64,000 nucleotides of DNA from Octopus vulgaris (taxonomy: Eukaryota). The first letter of the stretch is position 1, and each line of letters starts with the position of its first letter. Below are positions 1 to 37,544 of the stretch, piece by piece. The DNA is taken from contig OX597823.1 in the NCBI GenBank assembly GCA_951406725.2, positions 47,678,001 through 47,742,000 of the forward strand. The letters are read 5' to 3'. The translations under genes were made by a program, and so were the position numbers. The notes below the pieces were generated by a model that did not search any database, was not told the DNA's origin, and worked only from the letters and a program-made list of their open reading frames with translations.

Positions 1-253
1 CCATTTTTTATTTGTTATACATGGGAAAGACATACAAAACGTTAAAAAACTGGTGTTAACCAAGTGGTACGAACACGAAGATTGGAGCTACACGGTTGTG
101 GATAGTGATGATACGGGTATATTGGCGACAAGGTTAGAGGAAGAGGGTGTGTGTTGGAAGTCAGTGAAAATGAAAGATGAATGGATAGAGAGGGCTAAAA
201 GAAAAACGAATGTTGTGATAGGTGAAACAGGAATACAAATTGGAAATGGGTGA
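1..253 (+). CDS. C-terminal part of a family A ORF1-like protein (truncated by window edge)
   Basis: Matches the C-terminus of the downstream A units (...LTKWYEHEDWSY...IGETGIQIGNG). Confidence 0.85.
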   Translation, partial: HFLFVIHGKDIQNVKKLVLTKWYEHEDWSYTVVDSDDTGILATRLEEEGVCWKSVKMKDEWIERAKRKTNVVIGETGIQIGNG

Positions 254-599
254 AGAAGGACAGACAAGTGATGCTGGCGGATGGGGCCGTCGGTATCACT
301 CTCATATATCATTTTTCATATTCCATTTTGCTCATATATATGTAATTGTGATGTTCCATGTCCCCATGTCTTGTAATGTCCCCCTCTTCGTTGGCCCCTT
401 GTGGGTAATAAAAAATCACGTGGTTTTTTCGGCTCTGTGTTTTTTGCTCTCTGTGGAATTCGGTAAAAAGAAAAAAGAACAAAAAGTGAATGGTTGTTGG
501 TGTAAAATTTTGAACATAGTTGATGAGGTTTCGCGTCTCACTGGTTCTGCGCGTTACACTTTTTCGGTTCGGGAGGCCGTTTCTCGGCCGGAGGCGACT

Positions 600-1928
600 A
601 TGAGCCGCCTCCATCAAGCGGAGGAGATGGAAGGGAGAATTTACTCTGAAATTTCGACGGAAGTATCGACATCTGAGGAGGAGTTGGCGGTGAAAAAGAT
701 GGAAGGCACCTACGCAGGTGTAACGAAGAAGTCAACGGAAAGAGAGATAGACTTGGCTAAGTTGGCGGGCCTCCAGGAATTTGTGAAGGAGGACGAGAAC
801 GGTGAAGTTGAGCTGCTGCATCCAGTAGGGTGCGGAGACTGGTTCCATCGTAGAACCATTAAATATAAAGTATTTATGAATGGAGGTAGAAAGATGGAAG
901 TAATTAACATGGAAGCAATTGAAGAGGCTCTTAAGCAGACGGGAGAGGAAATTGTGTACATGACGAAAGGATTACAATACGGAACCATAACGGTGCAATT
1001 TAAAAGTGAAAAAGCAGCCAGGAATGTAGCAGCCAAGGTGGTGAGTACAGAAAAGATTTACTTGTTACCCTCGTATCTGAATAGGCGGACAACTAGAATT
1101 AGGGTGGAGGGAATACCTCCACACCTAGAGGGCGAAGTAATAACGGCTGCGGTTATAAAAGGAAATGAGGATGAGGTGGACATCCTCCACGCCAGTATGA
1201 AGTATGAAGGCGTGAGAGGTGCCACACTGGTTATGAACATTCAAACGGAGACGGATGTTATAGAGAAGATTACGGACAGCATAAAGACTGGAAATATTAT
1301 TATGAGAGTGTGGGTGGAGGGTAGGGCGCCCAGGTGCTACAAGTGTGGCCAAAGGGGTCACATAAGAGCCTACTGCCCTCCCCCACCAAAGGAAAAAGAA
1401 AAGGAAAGCGTTGAGGAAGTCTCGGGAGAGGAAGAAAATAAACAGAAACAAACAGAGAAGGAAACGACAGAAGAAGAGGAGATGCAACAAGAGTGGAAAG
1501 AAGCGGGAACAAAGAGAAAAAGAAGGAAAAAGAAAAACTGTGCGAAGCCCCAACCCACCCCGACACCACCCATACCCTTGGAGTCCCATCCTTCCCCTGC
1601 AAACAGTAATTCCACCCACTCCCCGCCTACAAGAAGAATAAAAACAGACACACAGAGCAAAGAAAGTCCCAAGACCCATTTTTTATTTGTTATACATGGG
1701 AGAGACGTACAAAACGTTAAAAAACTGGTGTTAACCAAGTGGTACGAACACGAAGATTGGAGCTACACGGCTGTGGATGGTGATGATACGGGTATATTGG
1801 CGACAAGGTTAGAGGAAGAGGGTGTGTGTTGGAAGTCAGTGGAAATGAAAGATGAATGGATAGAGAGGGCTAAAAGAAAAACGAATGTTGTGATGGTTAA
1901 AACAGGAATACTAATTGAAAATGGGTGA
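600..1928 (+). CDS. Family A ORF1/gag-like CCHC zinc-knuckle protein, 442 aa (unit 1)
   Basis: ATG at 600 (MSRLHQ). TYAGVT motif, RRM-like segment YMTKGLQYGTITVQF, knuckle CYKCGQRGHIRAYC, acidic and basic tracts. Confidence 0.85.
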   Translation: MSRLHQAEEMEGRIYSEISTEVSTSEEELAVKKMEGTYAGVTKKSTEREIDLAKLAGLQEFVKEDENGEVELLHPVGCGDWFHRRTIKYKVFMNGGRKMEVINMEAIEEALKQTGEEIVYMTKGLQYGTITVQFKSEKAARNVAAKVVSTEKIYLLPSYLNRRTTRIRVEGIPPHLEGEVITAAVIKGNEDEVDILHASMKYEGVRGATLVMNIQTETDVIEKITDSIKTGNIIMRVWVEGRAPRCYKCGQRGHIRAYCPPPPKEKEKESVEEVSGEEENKQKQTEKETTEEEEMQQEWKEAGTKRKRRKKKNCAKPQPTPTPPIPLESHPSPANSNSTHSPPTRRIKTDTQSKESPKTHFLFVIHGRDVQNVKKLVLTKWYEHEDWSYTAVDGDDTGILATRLEEEGVCWKSVEMKDEWIERAKRKTNVVMVKTGILIENG

Positions 1929-2273
1929 AGAAGGACAGATAAGTGATGCTGGCGGATGGGGCCGTCGGTATCGCTCTCATATATCATTTTCATATTCCAT
2001 TTTGCTCATATATATGTAATTGTGATGTTCCATGTCCCCATGTCTTGTAATGTCCCCCTCTTCGTTGGCCCCTTGTGGGTAATAAAAAATCACGTGGTTT
2101 TTTCGGCTCTGTGTTTTTTGCTCTCTGTGAAATTCGGTAAAAAGAAAAAAGAACAAAAAGTGAATGGTTGTTGGTGTAAAATTTTGAACATAGTTGATGA
2201 GGTTTCGCGTCTCACTGGTTCTGCGCGTTACACTTTTTCGGTTCGGGAGGCCGTTTCTCGGCCGGAGGCGACT

Positions 2274-3602
2274 ATGAGCCGCCTCCATCAAGCGGAGGAG
2301 ATGGAAGGGAGAATTTACTCTGAAATTTCGACGGAAGTATCGACATCTGAGGAAGAGTTGGCGGTGAAAAAGATGGAAGGCACCTACGCAGGTGTAACGA
2401 AGAAGTCAACGGAAAGAGAGATAGACTTGGCTAAGTTGGCGGGCCTCCAGGAATTTGTGAAGGAGGACGAGAACGGTGAAGTTGAGCTGCTGCATCCAGT
2501 AGGGTGCGGAGACTGGTTCCATCGTAGAACCATTAAATATAAAGTATTTATGAATGGAGGTAGAAAGATGGAAGTAATTAACATGGAAGCAATTGAAGAG
2601 GCTCTTAAGCAGACGGGAGAGGAAATTGTGTACATGACGAAAGGATTACAATACGGAACCATAACGGTGCAATTTAAAAGTGAAAAAGCAGCCAGGAATG
2701 TAGCAGCCAAGGTGGTGAGTACAGAAAAGATTTACTTGTTACCCTCGTATCTGAATAGGCGGACAACTAGAATTAGGGTGGAGGGAATACCTCCACACCT
2801 AGAGGGCGAAGTAATAACGGCTGCGGTTATAAAAGGAAATGAGGATAAGGTGGACATCCTCCACGCCAGTATGAAGTATGAAGGCGTGAGAGGTGCCACA
2901 CTGGTTATGAACATTCAAACGGAGGCGGATGTTATAGAGAAGATTACGGACAGCATAAAGACTGGAAATATTATTATGAGAGTGTGGGTGGAGGGTAGGG
3001 CGCCCAGGTGCTACAAGTGTGGCCAAAGGGGTCACATAAGAGCCTACTGCCCTCCCCCACCAAAGGAAAAAGAAAAGGAAAGCGTTGAGGAAGCCTCGGG
3101 AGAGGAAGAAAATAAACAGAAACAAACAGAGAAGGAAACGACAGAAGAAGAGGAGACGCAACAAGAGTGGAAAGAAGCGGGAACAAAGAGAAAAAGAAGG
3201 AAAAAGAAAAACTGTGCGAAGCCCCAACCCACCCCGACACCACCCATACCCTTGGAGTCCCATCCTTCCCCTGCAAACAGTAATTCCACCCACTCCCCGC
3301 CTACAAGAAAAATAAAAACAGACACACAGAGCAAAGAAAGTCCCAAGACCCATTTTTTATTTGTTATACATGGGAAAGACATACAAAACGTTAAAAAACT
3401 GGTGTTAACCAAGTGGTACGAACACGAAGATTGGAGCTACACGGTTGTGGATAGTGATGATACGGGTATATTGGCGACAAGGTTAGAGGAAGAGGGTGTG
3501 TGTTGGAAGTCAGTGAAAATGAAAGATGAATGGAGAGAGAGGGCTAAAAGAAAAACGAATGTTGTGATAGGTGAAACAGGAATACAAATTGGAAATGGGT
3601 GA
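2274..3602 (+). CDS. Family A ORF1-like protein, 442 aa (unit 2)
   Basis: Intact near-identical copy of unit 1. Confidence 0.85.
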   Translation: MSRLHQAEEMEGRIYSEISTEVSTSEEELAVKKMEGTYAGVTKKSTEREIDLAKLAGLQEFVKEDENGEVELLHPVGCGDWFHRRTIKYKVFMNGGRKMEVINMEAIEEALKQTGEEIVYMTKGLQYGTITVQFKSEKAARNVAAKVVSTEKIYLLPSYLNRRTTRIRVEGIPPHLEGEVITAAVIKGNEDKVDILHASMKYEGVRGATLVMNIQTEADVIEKITDSIKTGNIIMRVWVEGRAPRCYKCGQRGHIRAYCPPPPKEKEKESVEEASGEEENKQKQTEKETTEEEETQQEWKEAGTKRKRRKKKNCAKPQPTPTPPIPLESHPSPANSNSTHSPPTRKIKTDTQSKESPKTHFLFVIHGKDIQNVKKLVLTKWYEHEDWSYTVVDSDDTGILATRLEEEGVCWKSVKMKDEWRERAKRKTNVVIGETGIQIGNG

Positions 3603-3947
3603 AGAAGGACAGACAAGTGATGCTGGCGGATGGGGCCGTCGGTATCACTCTCATATATCATTTTTCATATTCCATTTTGCTCATATATATGTAATTGTGA
3701 TGTTCCATGTCCCCATGTCTTGTAATGTCCCCCTCTTCGTTGGCCCCTTGTGGGTAATAAAAAATCACGTGGTTTTTCGGCTCTGTGTTTTTTGCTCTCT
3801 GTGAAATTCGGTAAAAAGAAAAAAGAACAAAAAGTGAATGGTTGTTGGTGTAAAATTTTGAACATAGTTGATGAGGTTTCGCGTCTCACTGGTTCTGCGC
3901 GTTACACTTTTTCGGTTCGGGAGGCCGTTTCTCGGCCGGAGGCGACT

Positions 3948-5276
3948 ATGAGCCGCCTCCATCAAGCGGAGGAGATGGAAGGGAGAATTTACTCTGAAAT
4001 TTCGACGGAAGTATCGACATCTGAGGAGGAGTTGGCGGTGAAAAAGATGGAAGGCACCTACGCAGGTGTAACGAAGAAGTCAACGGAAAGAGAGATAGAC
4101 TTGGCTAAGTTGGCGGGCCTCCAGGAATTTGTGAAGGAGGACGAGAACGGTGAAGTTGAGCTGCTGCATCCAGTAGGGTGCGGAGACTGGTTCCATCGTA
4201 GAACCATTAAATATAAAGTATTTATGAATGGAGGTAGAAAGATGGAAGTAATTAACATGGAAGCAATTGAAGAGGCTCTTAAGCAGACGGGAGAGGAAAT
4301 TGTGTACATGACGAAAGGATTACAATACGGAACCATAACGGTGCAATTTAAAAGTGAAAAAGCAGCCAGGAATGTAGCAGCCAAGGTGGTGAGTACAGAA
4401 AAGATTTACTTGTTACCCTCGTATCTGAATAGGCGGACAACTAGAATTAGGGTGGAGGGAATACCTCCACACCTAGAGGGCGAAGTAATAACGGCTGCGG
4501 TTATAAAAGGAAATGAGGATAAGGTGGACATCCTCCACGCCAGTATGAAGTATGAAGGCGTGAGAGGTGCCACACTGGTTATGAACATTCAAACGGAGGC
4601 GGATGTTATAGAGAAGATTACGGACAGCATAAAGACTGGAAATATTATTATGAGAGTGTGGGTGGAGGGTAGGGCGCCCAGGTGCTACAAGTGTGGCCAA
4701 AGGGGTCACATAAGAGCCTACTGCCCTCCCCCACCAAAGGAAAAAGAAAAGGAAAGCGTTGAGGAAGCCTCGGGAGAGGAAGAAAATAAACAGAAACAAA
4801 CAGAGAAGGAAACGACAGAAGAAGAGGAGACGCAACAAGAGTGGAAAGAAGCGGGAACAAAGAGAAAAAGAAGGAAAAAGAAAAACTGTGCGAAGCCCCA
4901 ACCCACCCCGACACCACCCATACCCTTGGAGTCCCATCCTTCCCCTGCAAACAGTAATTCCACCCACTCCCCGCCTACAAGAAAAATAAAAACAGACACA
5001 CAGAGCAAAGAAAGTCCCAAGACCCATTTTTTATTTGTTATACATGGGAAAGACATACAAAACGTTAAAAAACTGGTGTTAACCAAGTGGTACGAACACG
5101 AAGATTGGAGCTACACGGTTGTGGATAGTGATGATACGGGTATATTGGCGACAAGGTTAGAGGAAGAGGGTGTGTGTTGGAAGTCAGTGAAAATGAAAGA
5201 TGAATGGATAGAGAGGGCTAAAAGAAAAACGAATGTTGTGATAGGTGAAACAGGAATACAAATTGGAAATGGGTGA
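3948..5276 (+). CDS. Family A ORF1-like protein, 442 aa (unit 3)
   Basis: Intact copy. Confidence 0.85.
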   Translation: MSRLHQAEEMEGRIYSEISTEVSTSEEELAVKKMEGTYAGVTKKSTEREIDLAKLAGLQEFVKEDENGEVELLHPVGCGDWFHRRTIKYKVFMNGGRKMEVINMEAIEEALKQTGEEIVYMTKGLQYGTITVQFKSEKAARNVAAKVVSTEKIYLLPSYLNRRTTRIRVEGIPPHLEGEVITAAVIKGNEDKVDILHASMKYEGVRGATLVMNIQTEADVIEKITDSIKTGNIIMRVWVEGRAPRCYKCGQRGHIRAYCPPPPKEKEKESVEEASGEEENKQKQTEKETTEEEETQQEWKEAGTKRKRRKKKNCAKPQPTPTPPIPLESHPSPANSNSTHSPPTRKIKTDTQSKESPKTHFLFVIHGKDIQNVKKLVLTKWYEHEDWSYTVVDSDDTGILATRLEEEGVCWKSVKMKDEWIERAKRKTNVVIGETGIQIGNG

Positions 5277-5621
5277 AGAAGGACAGACAAGTGATGCTGG
5301 CGGATGGGGCCGTCGGTATCACTCTCATATATCATTTTTCATATTCCATTTTGCTCATATATATGTAATTGTGATGTTCCATGTCCCCATGTCTTGTAAT
5401 GTCCCCCTCTTCGTTGGCCCCTTGTGGGTAATAAAAAATCACGTGGTTTTTCGGCTCTGTGTTTTTTGCTCTCTGTGAAATTCGGTAAAAAGAAAAAAGA
5501 ACAAAAAGTGAATGGTTGTTGGTGTAAAATTTTGAACATAGTTGATGAGGTTTCGCGTCTCACTGGTTCTGCGCGTTACACTTTTTCGGTTCGGGAGGCC
5601 GTTTCTCGGCCGGAGGCGACT

Positions 5622-6950
5622 ATGAGCCGCCTCCATCAAGCGGAGGAGATGGAAGGGAGAATTTACTCTGAAATTTCGACGGAAGTATCGACATCTGAGG
5701 AGGAGTTGGCGGTGAAAAAGATGGAAGGCACCTACGCAGGTGTAACGAAGAAGTCAACGGAAAGAGAGATAGACTTGGCTAAGTTGGCGGGCCTCCAGGA
5801 ATTTGTGAAGGAGGACGAGAACGGTGAAGTTGAGCTGCTGCATCCAGTAGGGTGCGGAGACTGGTTCCATCGTAGAACCATTAAATATAAAGTATTTATG
5901 AATGGAGGTAGAAAGATGGAAGTAATTAACATGGAAGCAATTGAAGAGGCTCTTAAGCAGACGGGAGAGGAAATTGTGTACATGACGAAAGGATTACAAT
6001 ACGGAACCATAACGGTGCAATTTAAAAGTGAAAAAGCAGCCAGGAATGTAGCAGCCAAGGTGGTGAGTACAGAAAAGATTTACTTGTTACCCTCGTATCT
6101 GAATAGGCGGACAACTAGAATTAGGGTGGAGGGAATACCTCCACACCTAGAGGGCGAAGTAATAACGGCTGCGGTTATAAAAGGAAATGAGGATAAGGTG
6201 GACATCCTCCACGCCAGTATGAAGTATGAAGGCGTGAGAGGTGCCACACTGGTTATGAACATTCAAACGGAGGCGGATGTTATAGAGAAGATTACGGACA
6301 GCATAAAGACTGGAAATATTATTATGAGAGTGTGGGTGGAGGGTAGGGCGCCCAGGTGCTACAAGTGTGGCCAAAGGGGTCACATAAGAGCCTACTGCCC
6401 TCCCCCACCAAAGGAAAAAGAAAAGGAAAGCGTTGAGGAAGCCTCGGGAGAGGAAGAAAATAAACAGAAACAAACAGAGAAGGAAACGACAGAAGAAGAG
6501 GAGATGCAACAAGAGTGGAAAGAAGCGGGAACAAAGAGAAAAAGAAGGAAAAAGAAAAACTGTGCGAAGCCCCAACCCACCCCGACACCACCCATACCCT
6601 TGGAGTCCCATCCTTCCCCTGCAAACAGTAATACCACCCACTCCCCGCCTACAAGAAAAATAAAAACAGACACACAGAGCAAAGAAAGTCCCAAGACCCA
6701 TTTTTTATTTGTTATACATGGGAAAGACATACAAAACGTTAAAAAACTGGTGTTAACCAAGTGGTACGAACACGAAGATTGGAGCTACACGGTTGTGGAT
6801 AGTGATGATACGGGTATATTGGCGACAAGGTTAGAGGAAGAGGGTGTGTGTTGGAAGTCAGTGAAAATGAAAGATGAATGGATAGAGAGGGCTAAAAGAA
6901 AAACGAATGTTGTGATAGGTGAAACAGGAATACAAATTGGAAATGGGTGA
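5622..6950 (+). CDS. Family A ORF1-like protein, 442 aa (unit 4)
   Basis: Intact copy. Confidence 0.85.
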   Translation: MSRLHQAEEMEGRIYSEISTEVSTSEEELAVKKMEGTYAGVTKKSTEREIDLAKLAGLQEFVKEDENGEVELLHPVGCGDWFHRRTIKYKVFMNGGRKMEVINMEAIEEALKQTGEEIVYMTKGLQYGTITVQFKSEKAARNVAAKVVSTEKIYLLPSYLNRRTTRIRVEGIPPHLEGEVITAAVIKGNEDKVDILHASMKYEGVRGATLVMNIQTEADVIEKITDSIKTGNIIMRVWVEGRAPRCYKCGQRGHIRAYCPPPPKEKEKESVEEASGEEENKQKQTEKETTEEEEMQQEWKEAGTKRKRRKKKNCAKPQPTPTPPIPLESHPSPANSNTTHSPPTRKIKTDTQSKESPKTHFLFVIHGKDIQNVKKLVLTKWYEHEDWSYTVVDSDDTGILATRLEEEGVCWKSVKMKDEWIERAKRKTNVVIGETGIQIGNG

Positions 6951-7296
6951 AGAAGGACAGACAAGTGATGCTGGCGGATGGGGCCGTCGGTATCACTCTC
7001 ATATATCATTTTTCATATTCCATTTTGCTCATATATATGTAATTGTGATGTTCCATGTCCCCATGTCTTGTAATGTCCCCCTCTTCGTTGGCCCCTTGTG
7101 GGTAATAAAAAATCACGTGGTTTTTTCGGCTCTGTGTTTTTTGCTCTCTGTGGAATTCGGTAAAAAGAAAAAAGAACAAAAAGTGAATGGTTGTTGGTGT
7201 AAAATTTTGAACATAGTTGATGAGGTTTCGCGTCTCACTGGTTCTGCGCGTTACACTTTTTCGGTTCGGGAGGCCGTTTCTCGGCCGGAGGCGACT

Positions 7297-8625
7297 ATGA
7301 GCCGCCTCCATCAAGCGGAGGAGATGGAAGGGAGAATTTACTCTGAAATTTCGACGGAAGTATCGACATCTGAGGAGGAGTTGGCGGTGAAAAAGATGGA
7401 AGGCACCTACGCAGGTGTAACGAAGAAGTCAACGGAAAGAGAGATAGACTTGGCTAAGTTGGCGGGCCTCCAGGAATTTGTGAAGGAGGACGAGAACGGT
7501 GAAGTTGAGCTGCTGCATCCAGTAGGGTGCGGAGACTGGTTCCATCGTAGAACCATTAAATATAAAGTATTTATGAATGGAGGTAGAAAGATGGAAGTAA
7601 TTAACATGGAAGCAATTGAAGAGGCTCTTAAGCAGACGGGAGAGGAAATTGTGTACATGACGAAAGGATTACAATACGGAACCATAACGGTGCAATTTAA
7701 AAGTGAAAAAGCAGCCAGGAATGTAGCAGCCAAGGTGGTGAGTACAGAAAAGATTTACTTGTTACCCTCGTATCTGAATAGGCGGACAACTAGAATTAGG
7801 GTGGAGGGAATACCTCCACACCTAGAGGGCGAAGTAATAACGGCTGCGGTTATAAAAGGAAATGAGGATGAGGTGGACATCCTCCACGCCAGTATGAAGT
7901 ATGAAGGCGTGAGAGGTGCCACACTGGTTATGAACATTCAAACGGAGACGGATGTTATAGAGAAGATTACGGACAGCATAAAGACTGGAAATATTATTAT
8001 GAGAGTGTGGGTGGAGGGTAGGGCGCCCAGGTGCTACAAGTGTGGCCAAAGGGGTCACATAAGAGCCTACTGCCCTCCCCCACCAAAGGAAAAAGAAAAG
8101 GAAAGCGTTGAGGAAGTCTCGGGAGAGGAAGAAAATAAACAGAAACAAACAGAGAAGGAAACGACAGAAGAAGAGGAGATGCAACAAGAGTGGAAAGAAG
8201 CGGGAACAAAGAGAAAAAGAAGGAAAAAGAAAAACTGTGCGAAGCCCCAACCCACCCCGACACCACCCATACCCTTGGAGTCCCATCCTTCCCCTGCAAA
8301 CAGTAATTCCACCCACTCCCCGCCTACAAGAAGAATAAAAACAGACACACAGAGCAAAGAAAGTCCCAAGACCCATTTTTTATTTGTTATACATGGGAGA
8401 GACGTACAAAACGTTAAAAAACTGGTGTTAACCAAGTGGTACGAACACGAAGATTGGAGCTACACGGCTGTGGATGGTGATGATACGGGTATATTGGCGA
8501 CAAGGTTAGAGGAAGAGGGTGTGTGTTGGAAGTCAGTGGAAATGAAAGATGAATGGATAGAGAGGGCTAAAAGAAAAACGAATGTTGTGATGGTTAAAAC
8601 AGGAATACTAATTGAAAATGGGTGA
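7297..8625 (+). CDS. Family A ORF1-like protein, 442 aa (unit 5; same variant as unit 1)
   Basis: Intact; translation identical to unit 1 in the ORF track. Confidence 0.85.
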   Translation: MSRLHQAEEMEGRIYSEISTEVSTSEEELAVKKMEGTYAGVTKKSTEREIDLAKLAGLQEFVKEDENGEVELLHPVGCGDWFHRRTIKYKVFMNGGRKMEVINMEAIEEALKQTGEEIVYMTKGLQYGTITVQFKSEKAARNVAAKVVSTEKIYLLPSYLNRRTTRIRVEGIPPHLEGEVITAAVIKGNEDEVDILHASMKYEGVRGATLVMNIQTETDVIEKITDSIKTGNIIMRVWVEGRAPRCYKCGQRGHIRAYCPPPPKEKEKESVEEVSGEEENKQKQTEKETTEEEEMQQEWKEAGTKRKRRKKKNCAKPQPTPTPPIPLESHPSPANSNSTHSPPTRRIKTDTQSKESPKTHFLFVIHGRDVQNVKKLVLTKWYEHEDWSYTAVDGDDTGILATRLEEEGVCWKSVEMKDEWIERAKRKTNVVMVKTGILIENG

Positions 8626-8970
8626 AGAAGGACAGATAAGTGATGCTGGCGGATGGGGCCGTCGGTATCGCTCTCATATATCATTTTCATATTCCATTTT
8701 GCTCATATATATGTAATTGTGATGTTCCATGTCCCCATGTCTTGTAATGTCCCCCTCTTCGTTGGCCCCTTGTGGGTAATAAAAAATCACGTGGTTTTTT
8801 CGGCTCTGTGTTTTTTGCTCTCTGTGAAATTCGGTAAAAAGAAAAAAGAACAAAAAGTGAATGGTTGTTGGTGTAAAATTTTGAACATAGTTGATGAGGT
8901 TTCGCGTCTCACTGGTTCTGCGCGTTACACTTTTTCGGTTCGGGAGGCCGTTTCTCGGCCGGAGGCGACT

Positions 8971-10299: not shown

Positions 10300-10645
10300 A
10301 GAAGGACAGACAAGTGATGCTGGCGGATGGGGCCGTCGGTATCACTCTCATATATCATTTTTCATATTCCATTTTGCTCATATATATGTAATTGTGATGT
10401 TCCATGTCCCCATGTCTTGTAATGTCCCCCTCTTCGTTGGCCCCTTGTGGGTAATAAAAAATCACGTGGTTTTTTCGGCTCTGTGTTTTTTGCTCTCTGT
10501 GAAATTCGGTAAAAAGAAAAAAGAACAAAAAGTGAATGGTTGTTGGTGTAAAATTTTGAACATAGTTGATGAGGTTTCGCGTCTCACTGGTTCTGCGCGT
10601 TACACTTTTTCGGTTCGGGAGGCCGTTTCTCGGCCGGAGGCGACT

Positions 10646-25610: not shown

Positions 25611-25999
25611 AACTGTGAGAAGAGAGAGAAGAAAGAAGAAAAAAAAAAAAATATTGTGAAATATATGTGACGAAAATGTAACCTCTCGATTCCGGGGATC
25701 GAGTGGGCATTTACATCTCATTGTAAATATTCTTTCATATGTCATTTTTTACTTTTATTTTTTCCTTTTCTTGTCATTCGCTTTCTTATTTTAAGTTCCC
25801 CGATTGTACTGTTCCATCTATGTTCGCCCCTTGTGGGTAATAATAAAATCTCCGCGGTCGTGTTTTGAAAATTTACCCACGTGTGTTGTTATCTGTGACT
25901 AGACAGTGAAATTTTGTTGTGTAAATTGATTATTATCGCGCGAGGCGTTTGCCTCCACGTGTGGAAACCTTCCGAAGAAGGTGAATTGACCCTCTAGTC

Positions 26000-27407
26000 A
26001 TGGCGACTTACGCGGGGGTCACGGGAAGGAAAAATAATGATTCGTCGATAATCGTGAAGGATGTTTTCTTTGAGAAGAGTAAACTCAAAGAATATGAAAA
26101 GCTATTCAAAAGGGAGGGTGATAGCGTGAAGCTAATCCCCCCCGCGAAAGCAAAAGAGGACAAAGAAAACAAGACTGTAACATATAGAACCCAAGACAAA
26201 AATACGAAGAAACTGGCAAGAGTGGAGATAGCCGAAAATGAAAAATGTCTGGGAGACATAATGGGGAAAACAACCTACGTGAGTAGAGGCAAGAAATTTG
26301 GTACGGTGGAGGTGAGATGTGCAACGGAAGAAATTGCAGCCTCACTGGCTACCACTGTACTAAGAGCCGAAAAATTTACAATGTGGCCCTCATACAAGGG
26401 AAGAAGAGGGGTCCGGGTTAAAATCCCGAATATACCCCCAGAAGTGAAAAACAGAATGGCTGGCAACAGCTATTCTAGGAGCAGCAGAAGAGGAAGTGGA
26501 GGTGGAATCCTTTAAGGAGTCCAACGCGGTAAACTGGAGAGGATATGGGGTAGAACTGTGTTTGATGGCCACAAAAGAGGACATTGAAAGGTTCCCCTAC
26601 AGAATAGAAATTGAAGATGAGAAAACCCTCAGTGTAATTGTAGAGGGAAGAAAGCCAAACTGCTACTTGTGCGGGACAAGGGGGCACATTAAAAAAGAGT
26701 GCCCGTTATACGAATTCGTAGCGGAGTTCGAGCAGGAACACGAAGAAAAGAAGAATACGGTAAATGAAAAAGAAAACATAGAAAAGGAAACAAAACAACA
26801 AGAGAAAGGAAATAATAAGTCAATGAAGGAAAAAGAAATAAAAGAAAAGAAAGAAATAGAACCAAAACAGAGTCAGGAAAAAAAAAAGGAAAAAGAAACA
26901 ACAGGAAAAAAACAAGAGAGAGATCAGAATCAAACGAAAAGAAAAGACGGCACACAAAAAGAAAAAGAAAAGGAACATAAAACACGAGAGAAAGAGAGAA
27001 CAGACAAAGAACCAAAAAGACAAGAGAAGGAAGGAGAAAGAAAAGAAGGCAAAAAGAGAGAAAGAGAGAAACAAAGAGAGGAGAACAAGGAAGAAATAAG
27101 CCCGAAAAGAAAAATGAAGGAAAACGTAGGACGGAAACAAGATTACTGCTTCTACAAGTTAGTAACCTTCCATTTCTGCCCTGAAATGAAAGACTTGACA
27201 TGTAATACGGAGGGACATATATGGGTCAACAGGATGACCGATCAGTGGCAAGAGCCTGCTCTAATCCCCGAAGAAAGAGTCGCTGAGTTCCTCAGAGCTG
27301 CCGGAGAGAGTGTAATATTTTACACGAGTGTTCGAGTGAGAGAGCGGCTGCCTGAGGGCTCAGTGATGGACTTTAGAGAATTGAAAGCTATTATGGAATA
27401 TGTATAG
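26000..27407 (+). pseudogene. Family D ORF1-like copy with frameshift (unit 16)
   Basis: Extra A at ~26447-26451 splits the ORF into two track entries. Confidence 0.75.
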
Positions 27408-27786
27408 AATTGTGAGAAGAGAGAGAAGAAAGAAGAGAAAAAAATGAAAATTTTGTGAAATATATGTGACGAAAATGTAACCTCTCGATTCCGGGGATCG
27501 AGTGGGCATTTACATCTCATTGTAAATATTCTTTCATATGTCATTTTTTACTTTTATTTTTTCCTTTTCTTGTCATTCGCTTTCTTATTTTAAGTTCCCC
27601 GATTGTATTGTCCCCTCTATGTTCGCCCCTTGTGGGTAGTAATAAAATCACGTGTCGGAAATCTATGCGTGTTGTTATCTGTGACTAGACGGTTGAAATT
27701 TTGTTGTGTAAATTGATTAATATCGCGCGAGGCGTTTGCCTCCACGTGTGGAAACCTTCCGAAGAAGGTGAATTGACCCTCTAGTC

Positions 27787-29189
27787 ATGGCGACTTACGC
27801 GGGGGTCACCGGGAAAAATAATGATTCGTCGATAATCATAAGGATGTTTTCTTTGAGAAGGATAAACTCAAAGAATATGAAAAGCTATTCAAAAGGGAGG
27901 GTGATAGCGTGAAGCTAATCCCCCCCGCGAAAGCAAAAGAGGACAAAGAAAGCAAGACAGTGACATACAGAACCCAAGACAAAAATACAAAGAAACTGGC
28001 AAGAGTGGAGATAGTCGAAATTGAAAAATGTCTGGGAGACATAATGGGGAAAACGAACCTACGTGAGTAGAGGCAAGAAATTTGGTACGGTGGAGGTGAG
28101 ATGTGCAACGGAAGAAATTGCAGCCTCACTGGCTACCACTGTACTAAGAGCCGAAAAATTTACAATGTGGCCCTCATACAAGGGAAGAAGAGGGGTCCGG
28201 GTTAAAATCCCGAATATACCCCCAGAAGTGAAAACAGAATGGCTGGCAACAGCTATTCTAGGAGCAGCAGAAGAGGAAGTGGAGGTGGAATCCTTTAAGG
28301 AGTCCAACGCGGTAAACTGGAGAGGATATGGGGTAGAACTGTGTTTGATGGCCACAAAAGAGGACATTGAAAGGTTCCCCTACAGAATAGAAATTGAAGA
28401 TGAGAAAACCCTCAGTGTAATTGTAGAGGGAAGAAAACCAAACTGTTACTTGTGTGGGACAAGGGGGCACATTAAAAAAGAGTGCCCGTTATACGAATTC
28501 GTAGCGGAGTGCGAGCAGGAACACGAAGAAAAGAAGAATACGGTAAATGAAAAAGAAAACATAGAAAAGGAAACAAAACAACAAGAGAAAGGAAATAATA
28601 AGTCAATGAAGGAAAAAGAAATAAAAGAAAAGAAAGAAATAGAACCAAAACAGAGTCAGGAAAAAAAAAAGGAAAAAGAAACAACAGGAAAAAAACAAGA
28701 GAGAGATCAGAATCAAACGAAAAGAAAAGACGGCACACAAAAGAAAAAGAAAAGGAACATAAAACACGAGAGAAAGAGAGAACAGACAAAGAACCAAAAA
28801 GACAAGAGAAGGAAGGAGAAAGAAAAGAAGGCAAAAAGAGAGAAAGAGAGAAACAAAGAGAGGAGAACAAGGAAGAAATAAGCCCGAAAAGAAAAATGAA
28901 GGAAAACGTAGGACGGAAACAAGATTACTGCTTCTACAAGTTAGTAACCTTCCATTTCTGCCCTGAAATGAAAGACTTGACATGTAATACGGAGGGACAT
29001 ATATGGGTCAACAGGATGACCGATCAGTGGCAAGAGCCTGCTCTAATCCCCGAAGAAAGAGTCGCTGAGTTCCTCAGAGCTGCTGGAGAGAGTGTAATAT
29101 TTTACACGAGTGTTCGAGTGAGAGAGCGGCTGCCTGAGGGCTCAGTGATGGACTTTAGAGAATTGAAAGCTATTATGGAATATGTATAG
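27787..29189 (+). pseudogene. Family D ORF1-like copy with several frameshifts (unit 17)
   Basis: Homologous to unit 15; indels near 27810, 28055 and 28740. Confidence 0.75.
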
Positions 29190-29663
29190 AATTGTGAGAA
29201 GAGAGAGAAGAAAGAAGAGAAAAAAAAAAAAAGAAAATTTTGTGAAATATATGTGACGAAAATGTAACCTCTCGATTCCGGGGATCGAGTGGGCATTTAC
29301 ATCTCATTGTAAATATTCTTTCATATGTCATTTTTTACTTTTATTTTTTCCTTTTCTTGTCATTCGCTTTCTTATTTTAAGTTCCCCGATTGTATTGTCC
29401 CATCTATGTTCGCCCCTTGTGGGTAGTAATAAAATCACGTGTCGGAAATCAATTTTTTGCGTTATTAGTAAGTTGATATATTTTTGCTCTCGTACTATTA
29501 TCTCTGTTATTATATACTGTTGGTCTACCTGTTTTGTCTATTGTTGTCTAACTGACGAAGTCAGCCTTCGCGTGAAGACTTCGCGTTGGTGTTCCCCCCT
29601 CCGTGGGGGAAAACTACAATTAATTTGGAATTACCAAAGGCTTGTTAAAGCCATTTGTTCAAG

Positions 29664-31041
29664 ATGGAGTCCCCCATCTCTTATTCGCCCGTGACGAGCG
29701 AGGATGAATACCCGGCGTTGTCGCCAAGAAAAAAAGAGGCGTTGTCGCCAAGAAAAAAAGAGGCGTTGTCGCCGAAGAAAAAAGAGGCGGCGTCGCCCAA
29801 GAAAATGGAAAAAACCAGTACCAGCATCAACTCCAGCAAAAAAATTCGCTGAAGTGGCTGGGAAAAAGATCAAAAAAATAAATATAGAAAATTTTGGAAA
29901 ATTTGCAGACTGTGTAAAAAAAGAAGGCACAGAAGTGACTGTGGCCACAAACATACAAAAACATGACGAGATAGAAAAAAAAGAATAATATATAAAACTT
30001 ACGACACAACGACAAAAATGATCCAAAAAATCGAAGAAAAAAAAATAGAGTTTTGTCTAAAACCTTTTATGGATAAAATAACGTATATAAACAGAGGAAA
30101 AAGATGCGGCACAGTGGAGGTGCGTTTTACTACGGAGGAGATAGCGAAGAAACTATCGATGGAGCCGATCAAAGCGGAAAACATTGTCTTACTACCATTG
30201 TATAAAGGAAAAAGGACGTCGAAAATTTCAATGAACAACATACCGCCAGAGGCAGATGCTGAATGTCTGGTGGCAGCAGTGATGGTAGGTCTGGAGGAAA
30301 AAATAAACATCCTCCAGGCCACAGTGGAGGAAGAGGAGTTTTGGAAAGGGCAAAAATAGTGATAGCCATTCAGGCGGAGGTGCAAACACTGGAAGAAATT
30401 CCAGAAACGGTAAAGATTAGTGAAGACGAGAAAATAACAGTGTTCGTGGAGGGCAGGAAGCCGAGGTGCTTCGGCTGCGGCAAGAAGGGTCATGTAAGGG
30501 CGGAATGCCAACCCCAACCCAAACCGCAGGAAGCACCTAAGCCAAAAGAAAAAGAAGATAATGTGTCACCAGAAGCAGCGTCGGACGGCCCAGAAGGGAA
30601 GACTGAAGGTGTGGAGGTGACGGTGACAGCAGAACCAGCGGCGGAGGAAAAAAAGAGCGAGGAAAAGATAAATGAGGAGGGGTGGGCAAAAATTACCGGA
30701 AAAAAAAAAGAAAAACGGAAACCACCCCTCCCAGAGTAATTTTAAAAAAGAAAAAAGAGTCAATGAACTCGTATATGGCCGTAAAGGCAGCAAATAGCAG
30801 ACTCGGAAACGTGTTGGCAGCCATGGCCAAAGTGGAGAAAGTAGTGAAAAAAAACGACTTTGTAATTTACAGAATAGACCGGAAGGATTACGGGCGGATA
30901 AAGTCAGAATTCTTCCATGACGTAGGCCCACTTAGATTGGATGTGACATCTCCACATATATTCGAGGGCCTACGTCAGACTCCCCCACGAGGCCCAGAAA
31001 AAGAGTTAGAAGAACAAGAGAAAACCGAACCACTGATATAA
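29664..31041 (+). pseudogene. LINE ORF1 (CCHC knuckle CFGCGKKGHVRAEC), broken by several frameshifts in A-runs
   Basis: Consecutive track fragments (29655-29852, 29704-29988, 30018-30359, 30263-30739, 30682-31041) join into a homolog of the upstream units (YINRGKRCGTVEVRF, VFVEGRKPRC). Confidence 0.8.
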
Positions 31042-31049
31042 GGTAAGTA

Positions 31050-34000
31050 ATGGATTACATTTATGTTGGTTGTTTGAATGTGCGCGGCCTGGGAGCAGGC
31101 TGGAAGCAAGGTCGCTTCCTGCATGATATCAGGTCGCGTAATTTAGATGTTATTGTTGCTACAGAAACCCGGTTAGAGGGGCCAAGAGGTCTACTCCCGC
31201 TGTTTGACGGCTACGAGAGTTTTTTCTCTCCTGGCAGTCCTACAGGCGGGAGTGGGGTGTTGGTCCTATTAAAAAGAAACCGGGTTTCTGAGAAAAAGTT
31301 AATTTTTGCAGATCCAGAAGGTAGGCTGGTCGTCATGGATTTGACGTTCAGTAATGGTAAAGTTATCAGACTGGTTGCAATTTACGCACCCAACCATACA
31401 GGGCAAAGTGATTATTTTCGTGAACTAGAAAACTTTCTTGGTACTTCGCATTCATTAGTGGTGCTAGGAGACTTTAACACAATTTGCAAAGCGGATGTAG
31501 ATTGTGTTGGCTCGCGTCCAGATAGAAAAGGCAACAGTGGCTTCATGGAACTGCTAAGCCGCTTTGAGCTAGCAGATCCTTATAGGCTGGAATTTCCGAA
31601 CGCTCCATTGTGGACATGGTCAAACAGCGACGGATCTTCCAGGTCATATTTAGATAGAATACTAATTAGAAAAGTAGACAGTAAAATAGCTAAGTGTCCA
31701 CAGTTTTACCCGATCAGCTACAGTGATCATAAAATGGTCACTTGTAAGCTTGACATAGATAAGGTTAAAAATAGAGGATCCGGTTACTGGAAACTTAATA
31801 CGTCCCTTTTGGCGATTAAGGAGTACAAAGACCGGATTAGGAATATAATTCAGAGGGCACTATCTGGTACCATCATTAATAACAAATGGTGGTACGCCCT
31901 CAAACGAGCCATCAAGTTTGAGTCTATTAGATATAGCATAGGAGTAGTGGCTAGAGAGGCTAGAAGGGAAACTACTCTAGTTAAGGAATTAGAGGAAGCC
32001 ATGAAAACTGGCTCTGCGGCTCAGGTGGCGTCCAAGAGACTGGTGTTAAACCAGCACCTCGAGGCCAAACACATGGGCTGCATTGTCAGGGCTAGAATCC
32101 GCCATATGGGATGTGAAGGAATCAACGCCGTGAGATGGGCCCGAGTGGTGGAAGCTCAGCATGGTAACGATGCCACGATTCGATCTTTGACGAACCAACA
32201 AGGTGAGTTGATAAACGAACCCGAGGAGATGTGTGAGGCCTTTCAGGAGCACTTCGCTCAGCTTTTCGGTGAGTGCGGCGGACTGGATAGGAGGAGGGCC
32301 TTTACGGACCTACTCGACGGTCTGCCGCGCTTATCGGGGCGAGATGCGGAGGGCTGTGAAGGGCCAATCACGCCTGAGGAGGTGGTTGAGGCAATGGCGG
32401 ACTGCGGCGCGGGCAAGGCGCCGGGTTTGGATGGTCTACCCTATGAGTTATATAAGAGTATGCCAGACTTGTTCGGGCACCTACTGGCGGAGGTCTATGC
32501 GAACTGGCAGCAGAACGGGCTTATACCCAGATCTGTGCGCCGGGGAGTAGTGACTCTCGTCAGAAAGGACCCGAGCAAGGGGGAGTGCATTGATAATTTC
32601 AGGCCCATCACTCTGCTAAACACAGAGTTGAAGATTTTGGCCAAAGTGTTATCGAAAAGATTGGCGCGTGTCGCGGATGGTCTGATCGGAGAGGCACAGA
32701 CATGTGCCGTTCCGGGCAGATCCATTCAGGATAATCTCCATCTAATGCGGTACACTATAGAGGGGTTTAATAGTGATTCTGGCAAGGGTGGGGCACTGGT
32801 CCATTTAGACCAATCTAAAGCTTTTGATAGGGTCGACCATCGTTACCTGGTATCTGCCCTGGCACAGTTCGGGCTGAGCCTTGGCTTCCTCAGGTGGATT
32901 ATCCAAATTTATGATAACATCGACTCGGTAGTTCGGGTGAACGGCTTCTTGTCGAAGCCGTTCAAAATCAAACGCTCGGTTCGTCAAGGGTGTCCGCTCT
33001 CCCCGCTTTTGTACGTGATGGCTCTTGAGCCATTACTGCGAAAACTGAGCGGCATCCCGAGACAGCCAGGTAATGGAAAATCAGTGTCAGCGTACGCGGA
33101 TGACATCACCATCATCGTAACCGAAATGGACCACCTATGTAAAGTAGGCAAGGCCATAGAGGTTTACGAGACGGTGACAGGAGCAAAAGTTAATCGCGAA
33201 AAGTCAGTCGGCTTGCAACTCGGCACCTGGAGAGGCAAGTCGATGCCTCCTGACAGCGTCGTGGGACGTTGGACGGAGGGTCCGATTAAACTGCTAGGGG
33301 TCTGGTTCGGTCCAGACCTCCAAATAGAGAAGAATTGGGGCGAGGTAACGAGCAAGGTGGCTGCAGTAGCCAAGACCTGGTCTTGGCGGTGGCTATCCCT
33401 GAAAGGGAGGGCGGAGGTGGCCAATGTGTTTATCGCATCGGTTATCACCTACCGCCTTTCCGTCGTTCCTTGCCCTGATTCGTGGTTGATCAAGTTGGAA
33501 AGACAGCTCTTCTACTTCTTGTGGAAGGGCGGGAAACCACTTGTGAAACGCTCTACTTGCTGTCAACAACCGTTAAAGGGTGGGCTAGGGATGCCTTGGC
33601 TGATGATGCGCAGACATGCGCTGAGGTTAAGACATCTGTGGCTCTACCTGGATGGTGAACGGGTGTGGTCTTCGCTAGCAAAACTGATGTTTCCCAAGTT
33701 CACTAGTTTCGGTGGATGGGAAACCTGGCTGAATCGTAGATCGAAACTTGGTACTTGGTACACGGAGTGTCGCAAGGCTCTCCTGCTATTCCGTCGCTCG
33801 GGCAACGCCTGCGGTGGGGGTTCCACCACATTCTTCTATAGAGGGTTGGTAGAGGCGGAATGTGAAGATACCTTGGGGGAAACCCTAGGTCTCGACGATA
33901 ATCAGCTGGCCAGTCTGTTCCGACGTACGTTCGAGCCGAGGACACTGGACAACTTCCAGAAGTCTCTGGCATGGCAATGCTACAGAGGAGCTCTACCTGT

Positions 34001-34445
34001 TCGGGATAAACTCGCAAGGCACGGTGGCCAAGACAGTCCGATATGTCCAAGATGCGGGCGGGATAGGGAAACCGTCCCGCACGCTATTGTTCATTGTCCG
34101 GACGTGTCTGAGGTGTGGGTTTATGCCGAACAGCTGTTGTCAGGTACACGAAGAGTACAGCTGTCGACTGAGTCGATTACAAAAATTGACCCACCGGATT
34201 TCCTCGTGAATGAAGGTAAGTTTCGTTTTCTCGTTGTAGTAGCAATTGCGAAAGAGGTGATATGGAAGACGAGAATGAAAGGTTTACAGTCAGGCAAGTT
34301 CATCTCCGGCCCTGGTTTGATGAAGTATTTCATCTTTCACCTGAAAAGGAAGATAGGGCTGGAGAGAATATGCCTGACTAGGAGAGTGTATGAAGAACGA
34401 TGGAAGGATGTAGCACGAAAGTTGCGAGTGAAAGATACAACATAA
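31050..34445 (+). CDS. LINE ORF2 polyprotein: AP-like endonuclease + reverse transcriptase + C-terminal zinc finger (L1/Tx1 group), 1131 aa, intact
   Basis: APE motifs LNVRG, ATET, IYAP, GDFN, YLDR, SDH, WKLN. RT motifs KAPGLDG, FRPITLLN, DQSKAFDRVDH, RQGCPLSPLLY, YADD. C-terminal CPRC-x8-H-x4-C. Confidence 0.96.
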   Translation: MDYIYVGCLNVRGLGAGWKQGRFLHDIRSRNLDVIVATETRLEGPRGLLPLFDGYESFFSPGSPTGGSGVLVLLKRNRVSEKKLIFADPEGRLVVMDLTFSNGKVIRLVAIYAPNHTGQSDYFRELENFLGTSHSLVVLGDFNTICKADVDCVGSRPDRKGNSGFMELLSRFELADPYRLEFPNAPLWTWSNSDGSSRSYLDRILIRKVDSKIAKCPQFYPISYSDHKMVTCKLDIDKVKNRGSGYWKLNTSLLAIKEYKDRIRNIIQRALSGTIINNKWWYALKRAIKFESIRYSIGVVAREARRETTLVKELEEAMKTGSAAQVASKRLVLNQHLEAKHMGCIVRARIRHMGCEGINAVRWARVVEAQHGNDATIRSLTNQQGELINEPEEMCEAFQEHFAQLFGECGGLDRRRAFTDLLDGLPRLSGRDAEGCEGPITPEEVVEAMADCGAGKAPGLDGLPYELYKSMPDLFGHLLAEVYANWQQNGLIPRSVRRGVVTLVRKDPSKGECIDNFRPITLLNTELKILAKVLSKRLARVADGLIGEAQTCAVPGRSIQDNLHLMRYTIEGFNSDSGKGGALVHLDQSKAFDRVDHRYLVSALAQFGLSLGFLRWIIQIYDNIDSVVRVNGFLSKPFKIKRSVRQGCPLSPLLYVMALEPLLRKLSGIPRQPGNGKSVSAYADDITIIVTEMDHLCKVGKAIEVYETVTGAKVNREKSVGLQLGTWRGKSMPPDSVVGRWTEGPIKLLGVWFGPDLQIEKNWGEVTSKVAAVAKTWSWRWLSLKGRAEVANVFIASVITYRLSVVPCPDSWLIKLERQLFYFLWKGGKPLVKRSTCCQQPLKGGLGMPWLMMRRHALRLRHLWLYLDGERVWSSLAKLMFPKFTSFGGWETWLNRRSKLGTWYTECRKALLLFRRSGNACGGGSTTFFYRGLVEAECEDTLGETLGLDDNQLASLFRRTFEPRTLDNFQKSLAWQCYRGALPVRDKLARHGGQDSPICPRCGRDRETVPHAIVHCPDVSEVWVYAEQLLSGTRRVQLSTESITKIDPPDFLVNEGKFRFLVVVAIAKEVIWKTRMKGLQSGKFISGPGLMKYFIFHLKRKIGLERICLTRRVYEERWKDVARKLRVKDTT

Positions 34446-34689
34446 ATGTAATACCAAGCGCAACCAAAAGTATCAGTGGGGAGGCGGGGCTCGTGGGGTC
34501 TGAGCTAAACCCGCACCCACTCCACCCGTAATGTCTTCCGGTCTGTCCCATCATTCGATTTCTGTCCATTTATTGTAATTCATGAAAATTTTTAAATCCG
34601 ATTTATTGTAAAAACCCATTCGTTTGTCTGACCCCATCATCAGATTGTATTGTCCCATCTATGTTCGCCCCTTGTGGGTAATAATAAAA

Positions 34690-35000: not shown

Positions 35001-35164
35001 AACGATTCCAGTCTGTTATATATTTTGAGTATCGTTATCACTAGCGATATCAAGATATAACTTTGTATTTTGCATTTTATGTGTAGATGTATATATGTAG
35101 ATGTTATATGTAGATGTACATGTAATATGTACACATATATATACACATTATACATGCACTAGTA

Positions 35165-37018: not shown

Positions 37019-37019
37019 C

Positions 37020-37062
<43 letters not shown>

Positions 37063-37063
<1 letters not shown>

Positions 37064-37468: not shown

Positions 37469-37544
<76 letters not shown>

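What the first reader, a model, noticed from the sequence alone, without database searches (positions are those of the whole stretch)
1..34689. Two-component retroelement array: at least 18 ORF1-only units stacked head-to-tail on one RT-encoding Tx1/L1-like element with a shared 3' end
Seen: four sub-families of ORF1-only units and the autonomous LINE are all on the + strand and abut without spacer DNA. All end in the same terminal module, although ORF1 families A, B, D and the LINE ORF1 are highly diverged. The 47-nt ends of unit 17 (29388-29434) and of the LINE (34643-34689) differ at one base. Known: ORF1-only LINE derivatives exist (mammalian HAL1, Drosophila HeT-A mobilised by TAHRE), and Tx1-clade elements are often sequence-specific. 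Inference: these units are non-autonomous partners mobilised in trans by this ORF2 and targeted to their own array. I do not know of a described multi-family, self-stacking L1/Tx1 system like this.
Basis: partly seen in the sequence, partly recalled or inferred. Interest (0 to 1): 0.9.

Follow-up and report, generated by a model that had tools for sequence, protein, structure and literature searches.

The report
Jumping genes stacked inside a Helitron
In an octopus genome, a LINE jumping gene sits at one fixed spot inside a common Helitron-like repeat at over a hundred places, and several enzyme-less relatives that likely borrow its machinery are piled in front of it in a fixed order, some carrying clustered A-to-G changes that likely record RNA editing on the way.

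Summary
The array is real and larger than reported: 23 ORF1-only units (15 A, 3 B, 2 C, 3 D; it starts 9.6 kb upstream of the window) ahead of one Tx1-like LINE, all sharing a ~45-nt tail. The array splits a ~1.1-kb Helitron-like repeat at a fixed site inside a captured, decayed ORF1 fragment. The genome has 110 exact filled and 1,020 exact empty sites, and 24 of the 30 closest LINE ends sit there. Across 31 mapped loci, D and LINE lie 3' of A/B/C/F (127 pairs to 1). Each element's 5' leader appears to provide the next landing site, so arrays likely grow 5'-ward. Eight of 109 ORF1-only copies, one in the window, carry clustered sense-strand A-to-G changes that avoid 5' G. This ADAR-like signature points to an RNA intermediate. 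Helitron hitch-hiking is rejected. Local duplication is real but partial (about 4 A units). The same tail ends a very abundant dispersed SINE. Each ingredient has a precedent (Tx1-Mar/SINEU, HAL1, HeT-A); my searches found no description of the combination. Trans-mobilisation by this ORF2 remains inferred.

The parts
1..416 (+). 3' end of an A unit; five more complete A units and the left half of the Helitron-like repeat lie upstream (array starts at -9623, repeat at about -10165)
417..13813 (+). Eight A units (1,674-1,676 bp; 442-aa ORF1, last one frameshifted). 417-2090 is identical to 7114-8787, part of a local 4-unit block duplication
13814..15540 (+). B unit with an A-to-G cluster: 16 of 19 substitutions versus the B unit at 17215 are G-for-A, all within 15102-15319
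15541..17214 (+). A unit
17215..18941 (+). B unit, unedited sibling of 13814-15540; its nearest relative (0.29%) lies on another contig
18942..22303 (+). Two C units (A-like 5' 1.2 kb, B-like 3' part; 457-aa ORF1 intact in the second)
22304..24038 (+). B unit with intact 471-aa ORF1
24040..24052 (+). Trapped 10-bp piece of the target's left flank (AGATTTGAAC); the same piece is missing at the array's left junction
24039..29434 (+). Three D units; the first has an intact 469-aa ORF1 (predicted tandem RRM folds plus CCHC)
29435..34689 (+). Tx1-like LINE: target-like 5' leader, frameshifted ORF1 (about 29665-31040), intact ORF2 31050-34445, 3' UTR and shared tail
34643..34689 (+). Shared tail with a predicted 4-bp stem and 5-nt loop; no poly(A)
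34692..35162 (+). Right half of the Helitron-like repeat, beginning at the insertion site and holding most of the decayed ORF1 fragment
41336..41575 (-). Copy of the abundant SINE that carries the same tail (not part of the array)

Best explanation
A Tx1-like LINE sits at one fixed site inside a dispersed Helitron-like repeat, and at least five ORF1-only families that share its ~45-nt tail are stacked in front of it in a fixed order, likely mobilised in trans by its ORF2 (or a sister's) and likely added one by one at the 5' side. SHOWN: the fixed site and its empty form; the site lies in a captured ORF1 homolog; polarity of arrays; independent origin of many neighbours; target duplications and 5' truncations; strand-specific A-to-G clusters; a partial local duplication. 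INFERRED: (1) ORF2 nicks the target near AC^ACATGG and reverse-transcribes any RNA bearing the tail. (2) LINE and D leave a target-like leader (ACATGG...) at their 5' end, which LINE, D, C and B can use. B, C and A leave a different leader (CGTG plus a T run), which A, B, C and F use but D and LINE almost never do. Each tier thus creates the landing site of the next. (3) The last bases of the RNA tail probably help choose the site by pairing with the nicked DNA. (4) Some unit RNAs are hyper-edited by ADAR before reverse transcription, which fixes the edits in DNA. (5) Once runs exist, unequal exchange lengthens them.
For: Target: arrays at 7 of 10 other loci are flanked by halves of the same repeat. 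23 of the 30 best repeat hits are empty and 7 are filled at the same point. Exact counts are 110 filled and 1,020 empty. Of the 30 closest LINE 3' ends, 24 abut the site, 4 abut another LINE's start and 2 lie elsewhere. Helitron-type ends: A^TC in 21 of 23 and hairpin+CTAG^T in 22 of 23 empty copies; ORF1 homology at repeat positions 615-956 (tblastn E 3e-7 to 6e-7). Polarity: 127 ordered pairs to 1; 8 of 9 mixed runs perfect versus 1.7 shuffled, p 5e-5. A is directly before D, LINE or the repeat in 0 of 44 cases; none of the 30 inspected filled sites ends in A or F. Independence: the nearest relative lies in another array for 24 of 31 B, 15 of 37 A and 4 of 10 D copies. A 5'-truncated LINE lies between 16-bp duplications (L160), and 16-19-bp duplications flank arrays at two non-Helitron sites. 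RNA passage: private A>G versus T>C is 135:5 in A, 100:16 in B and 63:8 in D, against 59:48 in LINE and 22:15 in the Helitron control. At 410 sites the changed fraction is 0.07 after G versus 0.21-0.51 after other bases, p 8e-40. Tail and target: C bodies with one tail precede ACATGG-type sites 9 of 9 times and with the other tail 0 of 4; A bodies with the A tail precede the CGTG-type leader 34 of 34 times and with the C tail 0 of 10. ORF1 constraint: dN/dS 0.22-0.29 for B-C, among C, one D pair and F.
Against: No mobilisation or expression experiment was run. Target specificity is shown for the young LINE subfamily only: on contigs C1-C3 just 23 of 67 tail clusters (95 of 167 tails) carry an exact repeat junction, and the 33 lone tails were not inspected. 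Direction of growth is indirect: the edited copy lies 5' of its sibling in 5 of 6 asymmetric pairs, p 0.22. LINEs at the 3' end often have closer relatives elsewhere (0.1-0.8%) than the D units before them, which could mean LINEs arrive last. A/F before B/C is not significant (2 of 10 perfect, p 0.34). Tail-target counts are not independent, because copies are kin. Among close A variants dN/dS is 0.5-0.8, and one pair has 16 non-synonymous to 1 synonymous change. The 3'-neighbour preference is G (0.37 vs 0.22 for A), whereas PMC5625713 reports A for invertebrate hyper-editing. The arrays were sampled by similarity to A or by the repeat junction, not at random.
Confidence: 0.72

Rival explanations
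1. The same parts, but arrays form by retrotransposition of multi-unit read-through transcripts, or new elements enter at the 3' junction or internally; the order is then inherited from a few donor arrays.
For: Variant leaders recur at different loci, so leaders travel with donors. D-LINE pairs with the same odd leader occur at L163 and L170. Terminal LINEs look young. Left-flank pieces of up to 70 bp lie inside arrays whose left flank is intact.
Against: A and F are never seen alone on the repeat's right half, although solo LINE and C insertions are common. Arrays differ in content and neighbours have different nearest relatives. In this window the piece missing at the left junction is the one trapped at 24040.
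Confidence: 0.15
2. The units are mobilised by other Tx1 subfamilies with their own target preferences, not by the ORF2 in this window; tail type marks which helper is used (not exclusive of the best explanation).
For: LINE relatives at 77%, 81%, 92% and 96% identity occur in or near arrays. The first look gave 2,421 candidates for the LINE 3' end. A, B and C tails match this LINE at about 84% against 96% for D.
Against: C, B and D insert at the same base of the repeat as this LINE.
Confidence: 0.25
3. Arrays are mainly products of DNA-level unequal crossover from one or two founding insertions.
For: A 4-unit-period block in this array has identical pairs; near-identical neighbours occur at C2b and L164; 22 of 37 A copies have their nearest relative in the same array.
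Against: It cannot join families of 28-57% protein identity in a fixed order at many loci. It does not produce sense-strand A-to-G clusters or neighbours whose closest kin is on another contig.
Confidence: 0.07
4. One composite Helitron carrying the LINE or an array was copied around by rolling-circle transposition.
For: Both halves of the repeat with intact ends flank many arrays.
Against: In 20 loci, LINE 3' ends differ by a median 1.7% and their host repeats by 5.6%, uncorrelated (rho -0.09). The 15 LINE pairs under 0.5% sit in repeats at least 3.2% apart. Filled and empty copies are unclustered on a poorly resolved tree (16 changes vs 17.0 shuffled).
Confidence: 0.03
5. Assembly artefact.
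For: Identical A units four places apart; frequent frameshifts in units and LINEs, seen at A runs in the window LINE. No long reads were examined.
Against: 31 loci have distinct content and junctions.
Confidence: 0.02

Closest known systems
Crocodilian Tx1-Mar LINEs with SINEU-3 (Kojima 2015, PMC4494074; passages and section 15 read)
   Same: A Tx1 LINE and a non-autonomous partner both insert into a non-autonomous DNA transposon; tandem insertions sandwich a target duplication.
   Different: The partner there is a non-coding snRNA-derived SINE and the target a Mariner. Here the partners are five protein-coding ORF1-only families, the target is Helitron-like with a captured ORF1 piece, and stacks are long and ordered.
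Xenopus Tx1L in Tx1D (as cited in PMC4494074, passage)
   Same: Tx1 LINE at a fixed site in a non-autonomous DNA transposon.
   Different: No ORF1-only partners or ordered mixed arrays are mentioned in the passages read.
HAL1 (half-L1) (PMC5753468, passage; Bao and Jurka 2010 not held)
   Same: Non-autonomous LINE derivative encoding only ORF1p, with several origins.
   Different: HAL1 derives from mammalian L1; dispersal and poly(A) dependence are recalled, not read. Here there is a sequence-specific tail, target specificity and stacking.
Drosophila telomeric HeT-A-type ORF1-only elements (PMC13534243, passages)
   Same: Many ORF1-only families depend on ORF2 of partners and form mixed head-to-tail arrays; ORF1-only lineages give rise to new ones.
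   Different: [quoted passage not shown] Here the arrays are interstitial and anchored on an endonuclease target.
Double insertion followed by unequal exchange, e.g. the R1 tandem array (McGurk and Barbash, 10.1101/158386, passages)
   Same: Repeated insertion at one site, then expansion by unequal exchange.
   Different: Single-family tandems there; here a multi-family hierarchy.
SART1Bm/R1Bm RNA-target annealing (PMC7265360, passages)
   Same: ORF proteins mobilise 3' UTR reporters in trans; RNA 3' bases may anneal to the nicked target.
   Different: R1 clade with telomere or rDNA targets; the pairing here is inferred only.

Membership tests
Tx1 clade LINE | ORF2 with APE endonuclease, RT and C-terminal zinc-binding domain | tested here: met
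   PF03372, PF00078 and PF13966 above cut-off
Tx1 clade LINE | ORF1 with RRM folds and CCHC knuckle (feature recalled) | tested here: met
   zf-CCHC; model of D ORF1, pLDDT 76, matches tandem-RRM proteins at low TM-score, best E 1e-5
Tx1 clade LINE | RT phylogeny within Tx1 rather than L1 | tested here: inconclusive
   Best solved relative is human L1 ORF2p (E 9e-66). One homolog is named 'Transposon TX1' (38%, 35%). No Repbase or Dfam references were available for a tree.
Tx1 clade LINE | Target preference (over 20% of flanks in one repeat, criterion of PMC4494074) | tested here: met
   24 of the 30 closest LINE ends; sample biased to the young subfamily
HAL1 | Encodes ORF1 only | tested here: met
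   No ORF2 remnant in A, B, C, D or F
HAL1 | Derived from mammalian L1 | tested here: not met
   Octopus-named homologs; ORF1 is 33-35% identical to the partner LINE's; only short matches and the tail are shared at DNA level
HeT-A-type telomeric elements | ORF1-only units in mixed head-to-tail arrays | tested here: met
HeT-A-type telomeric elements | Telomeric location | tested here: not met
   The window lies at 47.7 Mb of a 118-Mb contig; arrays are interstitial on many contigs
Helitron (HLE1), for the target repeat | 5' TC, 3' hairpin plus CTRR, insertion between A and T (PMC11417382, passage) | tested here: met
   A^TC in 21 of 23 and CTAG^T in 22 of 23 empty copies; hairpin folds
Helitron (HLE1), for the target repeat | Autonomous RepHel partner with the same ends | not tested
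   No search was made
ADAR hyper-editing, for the A-to-G clusters | Clustered, one-strand A-to-G with 5' G depletion (PMC5625713, passage) | tested here: met
   the 3' preference is G, unlike the invertebrate pattern in that paper
ADAR hyper-editing, for the A-to-G clusters | Editing seen in RNA versus DNA | not tested
   No reads were laid
tRNA/CORE SINE, for the abundant tail-sharing repeat | tRNA head and CORE domain | tested here: inconclusive
   ARAGORN found no tRNA in 10 loci; the CORE resemblance is recalled only

The most novel reading that the evidence does not exclude
A retrotransposon community with target succession: a Helitron captured a piece of the clade's own ORF1 and spread about a thousand or more landing pads; the LINE colonises them; each tier's 5' leader creates the site for the next; and the RNA tail, not ORF1, steers site choice by pairing. 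Octopus ADAR writes its edits into the germ-line copies, so host RNA editing mutates a selfish lineage, and the same tail drives one of the genome's most abundant SINEs.
Probability: 0.35. Interest if true: 0.85.

Novelty: new variant of a known kind. Interest (0 to 1): 0.68.

Why it matters
It offers a natural, multi-copy test of what decides LINE target choice (endonuclease, ORF1 or RNA tail) and of why ORF1-only elements keep their gene, a question so far studied mainly at fly telomeres. It shows HeT-A-like arrays forming away from telomeres. Genomic copies with ADAR-type clusters would be a record of germ-line RNA editing becoming heritable in an animal group known for heavy editing. A site-specific LINE that accepts tail-bearing cargo is also of interest for gene insertion tools. 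Repeat annotations would tend to mislabel these units as host genes; several already appear as uncharacterised Octopus proteins.

Tried and rejected
Rfam scan of the window: 0 matches, so no RNA-gene target. Classical target duplication around the whole array: none; the left junction lacks about 11 bp of target. LINE lacking ORF1 altogether (mutual dependence): rejected, since 2 of 20 copies have 445-459-aa ORF1s. ACCTGG variant of the site as an escape allele: not absolute, 3 of 24 filled sites carry it. A 'locus-private' GATTGAAC variant as proof of growth direction: dropped, because it occurs at two loci. Leader-versus-neighbour test: incomplete, as the script skipped some tail types and kept cut copies; 3 of 6 informative rows matched, so it is not relied on. 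One junction pattern was mis-specified and gave 0 hits. Expression: no RNA holder listed on record and no reads were laid, so the question is open. Tail fold: only 4 pairs with 1 compensatory change, weak support. Atlas hits are CCHC/RRM clusters at 0.89-0.92, leads only. ORF1 homolog searches found only 9 Octopus-named proteins each, so the range in other cephalopods is unresolved. Literature: ten searches listed no paper that describes this system or ADAR-edited genomic LINE copies, judged from listings and the passages read. Subscription papers, Repbase and Dfam entries, and the supplements of PMC13282606 (13 active L1-Tx1 and 8 Helitron families tabulated) were not seen and may hold these families. 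Bao and Jurka 2010 and Gilbert and Labuda 1999 were not held.
Full report
OBSERVATION. The tail motif occurs 19 times on the + strand from 394 to 34667. It delimits 17 complete units of 1,674-1,810 bp, one partial unit and a 5,255-bp LINE. Units form groups A, B, C and D, each with one CCHC-bearing ORF and no ORF2 remnant. The LINE has an intact 1,131-aa APE-RT-zf ORF2 and a frameshifted ORF1. The 47-nt claim holds. In 100 kb of upstream DNA the array continues to -9623, giving 23 ORF1-only units. ORF1 homologs carry Octopus vulgaris names, so the host is very likely an octopus.

THE TARGET. The DNA on either side of the array is one repeat cut in two. The same halves flank arrays at 7 of 10 other loci found with unit A. 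Of the 30 best matches to the right half, 23 are empty and read ...GAAAAAAG AAGATTTGAAC^ACATGGAGGAAAGC..., and 7 are filled at that point. Exact patterns give 110 filled and 1,020 empty sites. Empty copies are about 0.85-1.2 kb with A^TC (21 of 23) and hairpin plus CTAG^T (22 of 23), the HLE1 signature of PMC11417382 (passages); no autonomous partner was sought. Positions 615-956 of the repeat are a decayed homolog of the family's own ORF1, and the site lies inside it. Starting from the LINE instead, 24 of its 30 closest 3' ends abut the site, 4 abut another LINE and 2 lie elsewhere. The limit of this result: on contigs C1-C3 only 23 of 67 tail clusters carry an exact junction, and the rest were not inspected.

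NOT HITCH-HIKING, NOT ONLY DUPLICATION. Across 20 loci, LINE ends differ by a median 1.7% and their host repeats by 5.6%, without correlation; filled and empty repeats are intermixed on a weak tree. The nearest relative lies in another array for 24 of 31 B, 15 of 37 A and 4 of 10 D copies. A 5'-truncated LINE lies between 16-bp duplications, and arrays at two other targets have 16-19-bp duplications. Local duplication is also real: in this array three unit pairs four places apart are identical, so about 4 A units are a block copy or an assembly duplication.

ORDER. In 31 mapped loci (own, 10 chosen by similarity to A, 20 chosen from the 110 junctions; several cut by the fetched region) D and LINE lie 3' of A, B, C and F in 127 pairs to 1; 8 of 9 mixed runs are perfect against 1.7 shuffled, p 5e-5. 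LINE follows D in 7 of 8 (p 0.003). A/F before B/C is not significant. A never directly precedes D, LINE or the repeat (0 of 44). D and LINE begin with target-like leaders; A, B, C and F begin with CGTG plus a T run, and the left junction then usually lacks about 11 bp of target. Since A and F are not found alone on the site but are often leftmost, growth is likely 5'-ward. The piece missing at this array's left end is trapped at 24040, which fits. Against this, terminal LINEs look young, leaders can travel with donors, and the edited-copy polarity is only 5 of 6, p 0.22. Tail type predicts the next sequence better than the ORF1 body does, which suggests RNA-target pairing as proposed for SART1Bm and R1Bm (PMC7265360, passages). 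Different helper ORF2s would give the same pattern.

RNA PASSAGE. Eight of 109 ORF1-only copies have private substitutions dominated by sense-strand A-to-G (e.g. 48 of 49, 63 of 71, 48 of 53), with T-to-C near zero. Two further B copies and one LINE with 8 or more A-to-G were not so dominated and were left out of the context count; the 20 LINE copies and the repeat control show no such skew. At 410 sites the change avoids a 5' G (0.07 vs 0.21-0.51), the ADAR hallmark in PMC5625713 (passages); the 3' preference is G, where that paper reports A for invertebrates. In the window, unit 13814-15540 differs from its sibling at 17215 by 19 substitutions, 16 of them G-for-A within 218 bp. DNA recombination does not make this pattern; editing of RNA followed by reverse transcription would. 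This is the strongest evidence that the units retrotranspose, though editing itself was not seen in reads.

ORF1. Families share 28-57% identity (A and C 80%), about 33% with the LINE's ORF1, and form long separate branches, so they are far older than the repeat's 4-6% spread. dN/dS is 0.22-0.29 in several comparisons and 0.4-0.8 in others. The D ORF1 model matches tandem-RRM proteins. Full-length ORFs remain in 30 of 42 A, 9 of 34 B, 5 of 12 C, 1 of 15 D and 1 of 6 F copies.

COMPARISON. Tx1 LINEs that target DNA transposons, with a non-autonomous partner and tandem insertions, are known (PMC4494074, passages and section 15). So are ORF1-only derivatives (HAL1, PMC5753468, passage), multi-family ORF1-only arrays at fly telomeres (PMC13534243, passages) and double insertion followed by unequal exchange (10.1101/158386, passages). 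Two unchecked notes of this scan report stacked Tx1 arrays on other targets in other genomes, so TE-targeted stacking alone is not rare. Octopus repeat papers (PMC13282606, first third and passages; PMC8967140 and PMC12988792, passages) list L1-Tx1, Helitron and CORE SINE classes without such structure in what I saw; their supplements were not seen. PMC4758252, PMC3747384 and PMC4866542 (passages) added nothing specific. Ten searches found no description of this combination.

VERDICT. A real, genome-wide system and a new variant of known kinds. Shown: target, polarity, independent insertions, A-to-G clusters, partial local duplication. Inferred: helper identity, growth direction, tail-guided site choice, ADAR as the agent. 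Tx1 membership lacks a reference tree. Interest 0.68.

Noticed in passing
genome-wide; L001-L010; window 41336-41575 (-): A SINE accounts for 10 of 10 inspected hits among 92,125 exact tail matches. It is dispersed, shows 10-16-bp duplications in some copies, and often forms 184-bp tandems in which the tail runs into an internal point of the next copy. None of 30 inspected filled repeat sites holds it. The SINE/LINE pairing is likely but untested.
   Followed up: partly
L057-L058 (C10:73.27 Mb): An A-type pair outside the Helitron-like repeat is inserted next to another decayed ORF1 (42% to F, E 4e-25), about 20 codons from the equivalent of the usual site; ORF1 relics may be recurrent targets.
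   Followed up: partly
L051 and L057, first units: Two hyper-changed A copies on different contigs share 60 A-to-G sites against about 32 expected if independent: either an edited donor spread, or the sites are preferred. In L051 the left target duplication itself shows one A-to-G change.
   Followed up: partly
L045-L046 (C1:74.68 Mb): A B unit holds an internal inverted copy of its 3' 940 bp, like a twin-priming or fold-back product and a possible source of double-stranded RNA.
   Followed up: no
L045, L050, L061, L169 and C1:142.96 Mb: A fifth ORF1-only family (F, about 1.79 kb, 33-39% to the others) is absent from this window.
   Followed up: yes
L165 and L046: Two LINE subfamilies differ strongly in ORF1 (dS 0.53, dN 0.06) while 3' ends stay close, suggesting ORF1 module exchange; C is likewise an A/B mosaic.
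   Followed up: partly
window 417-2090 versus 2091-3765: Two A haplotypes differ by 16 non-synonymous and 1 synonymous change; not tested for selection.
   Followed up: no
window 35100-64000: AT-rich, microsatellite-dense DNA with other dispersed repeats (e.g. 37016-37498, 38990-39516, 57715-58169); no convincing ORF.
   Followed up: no
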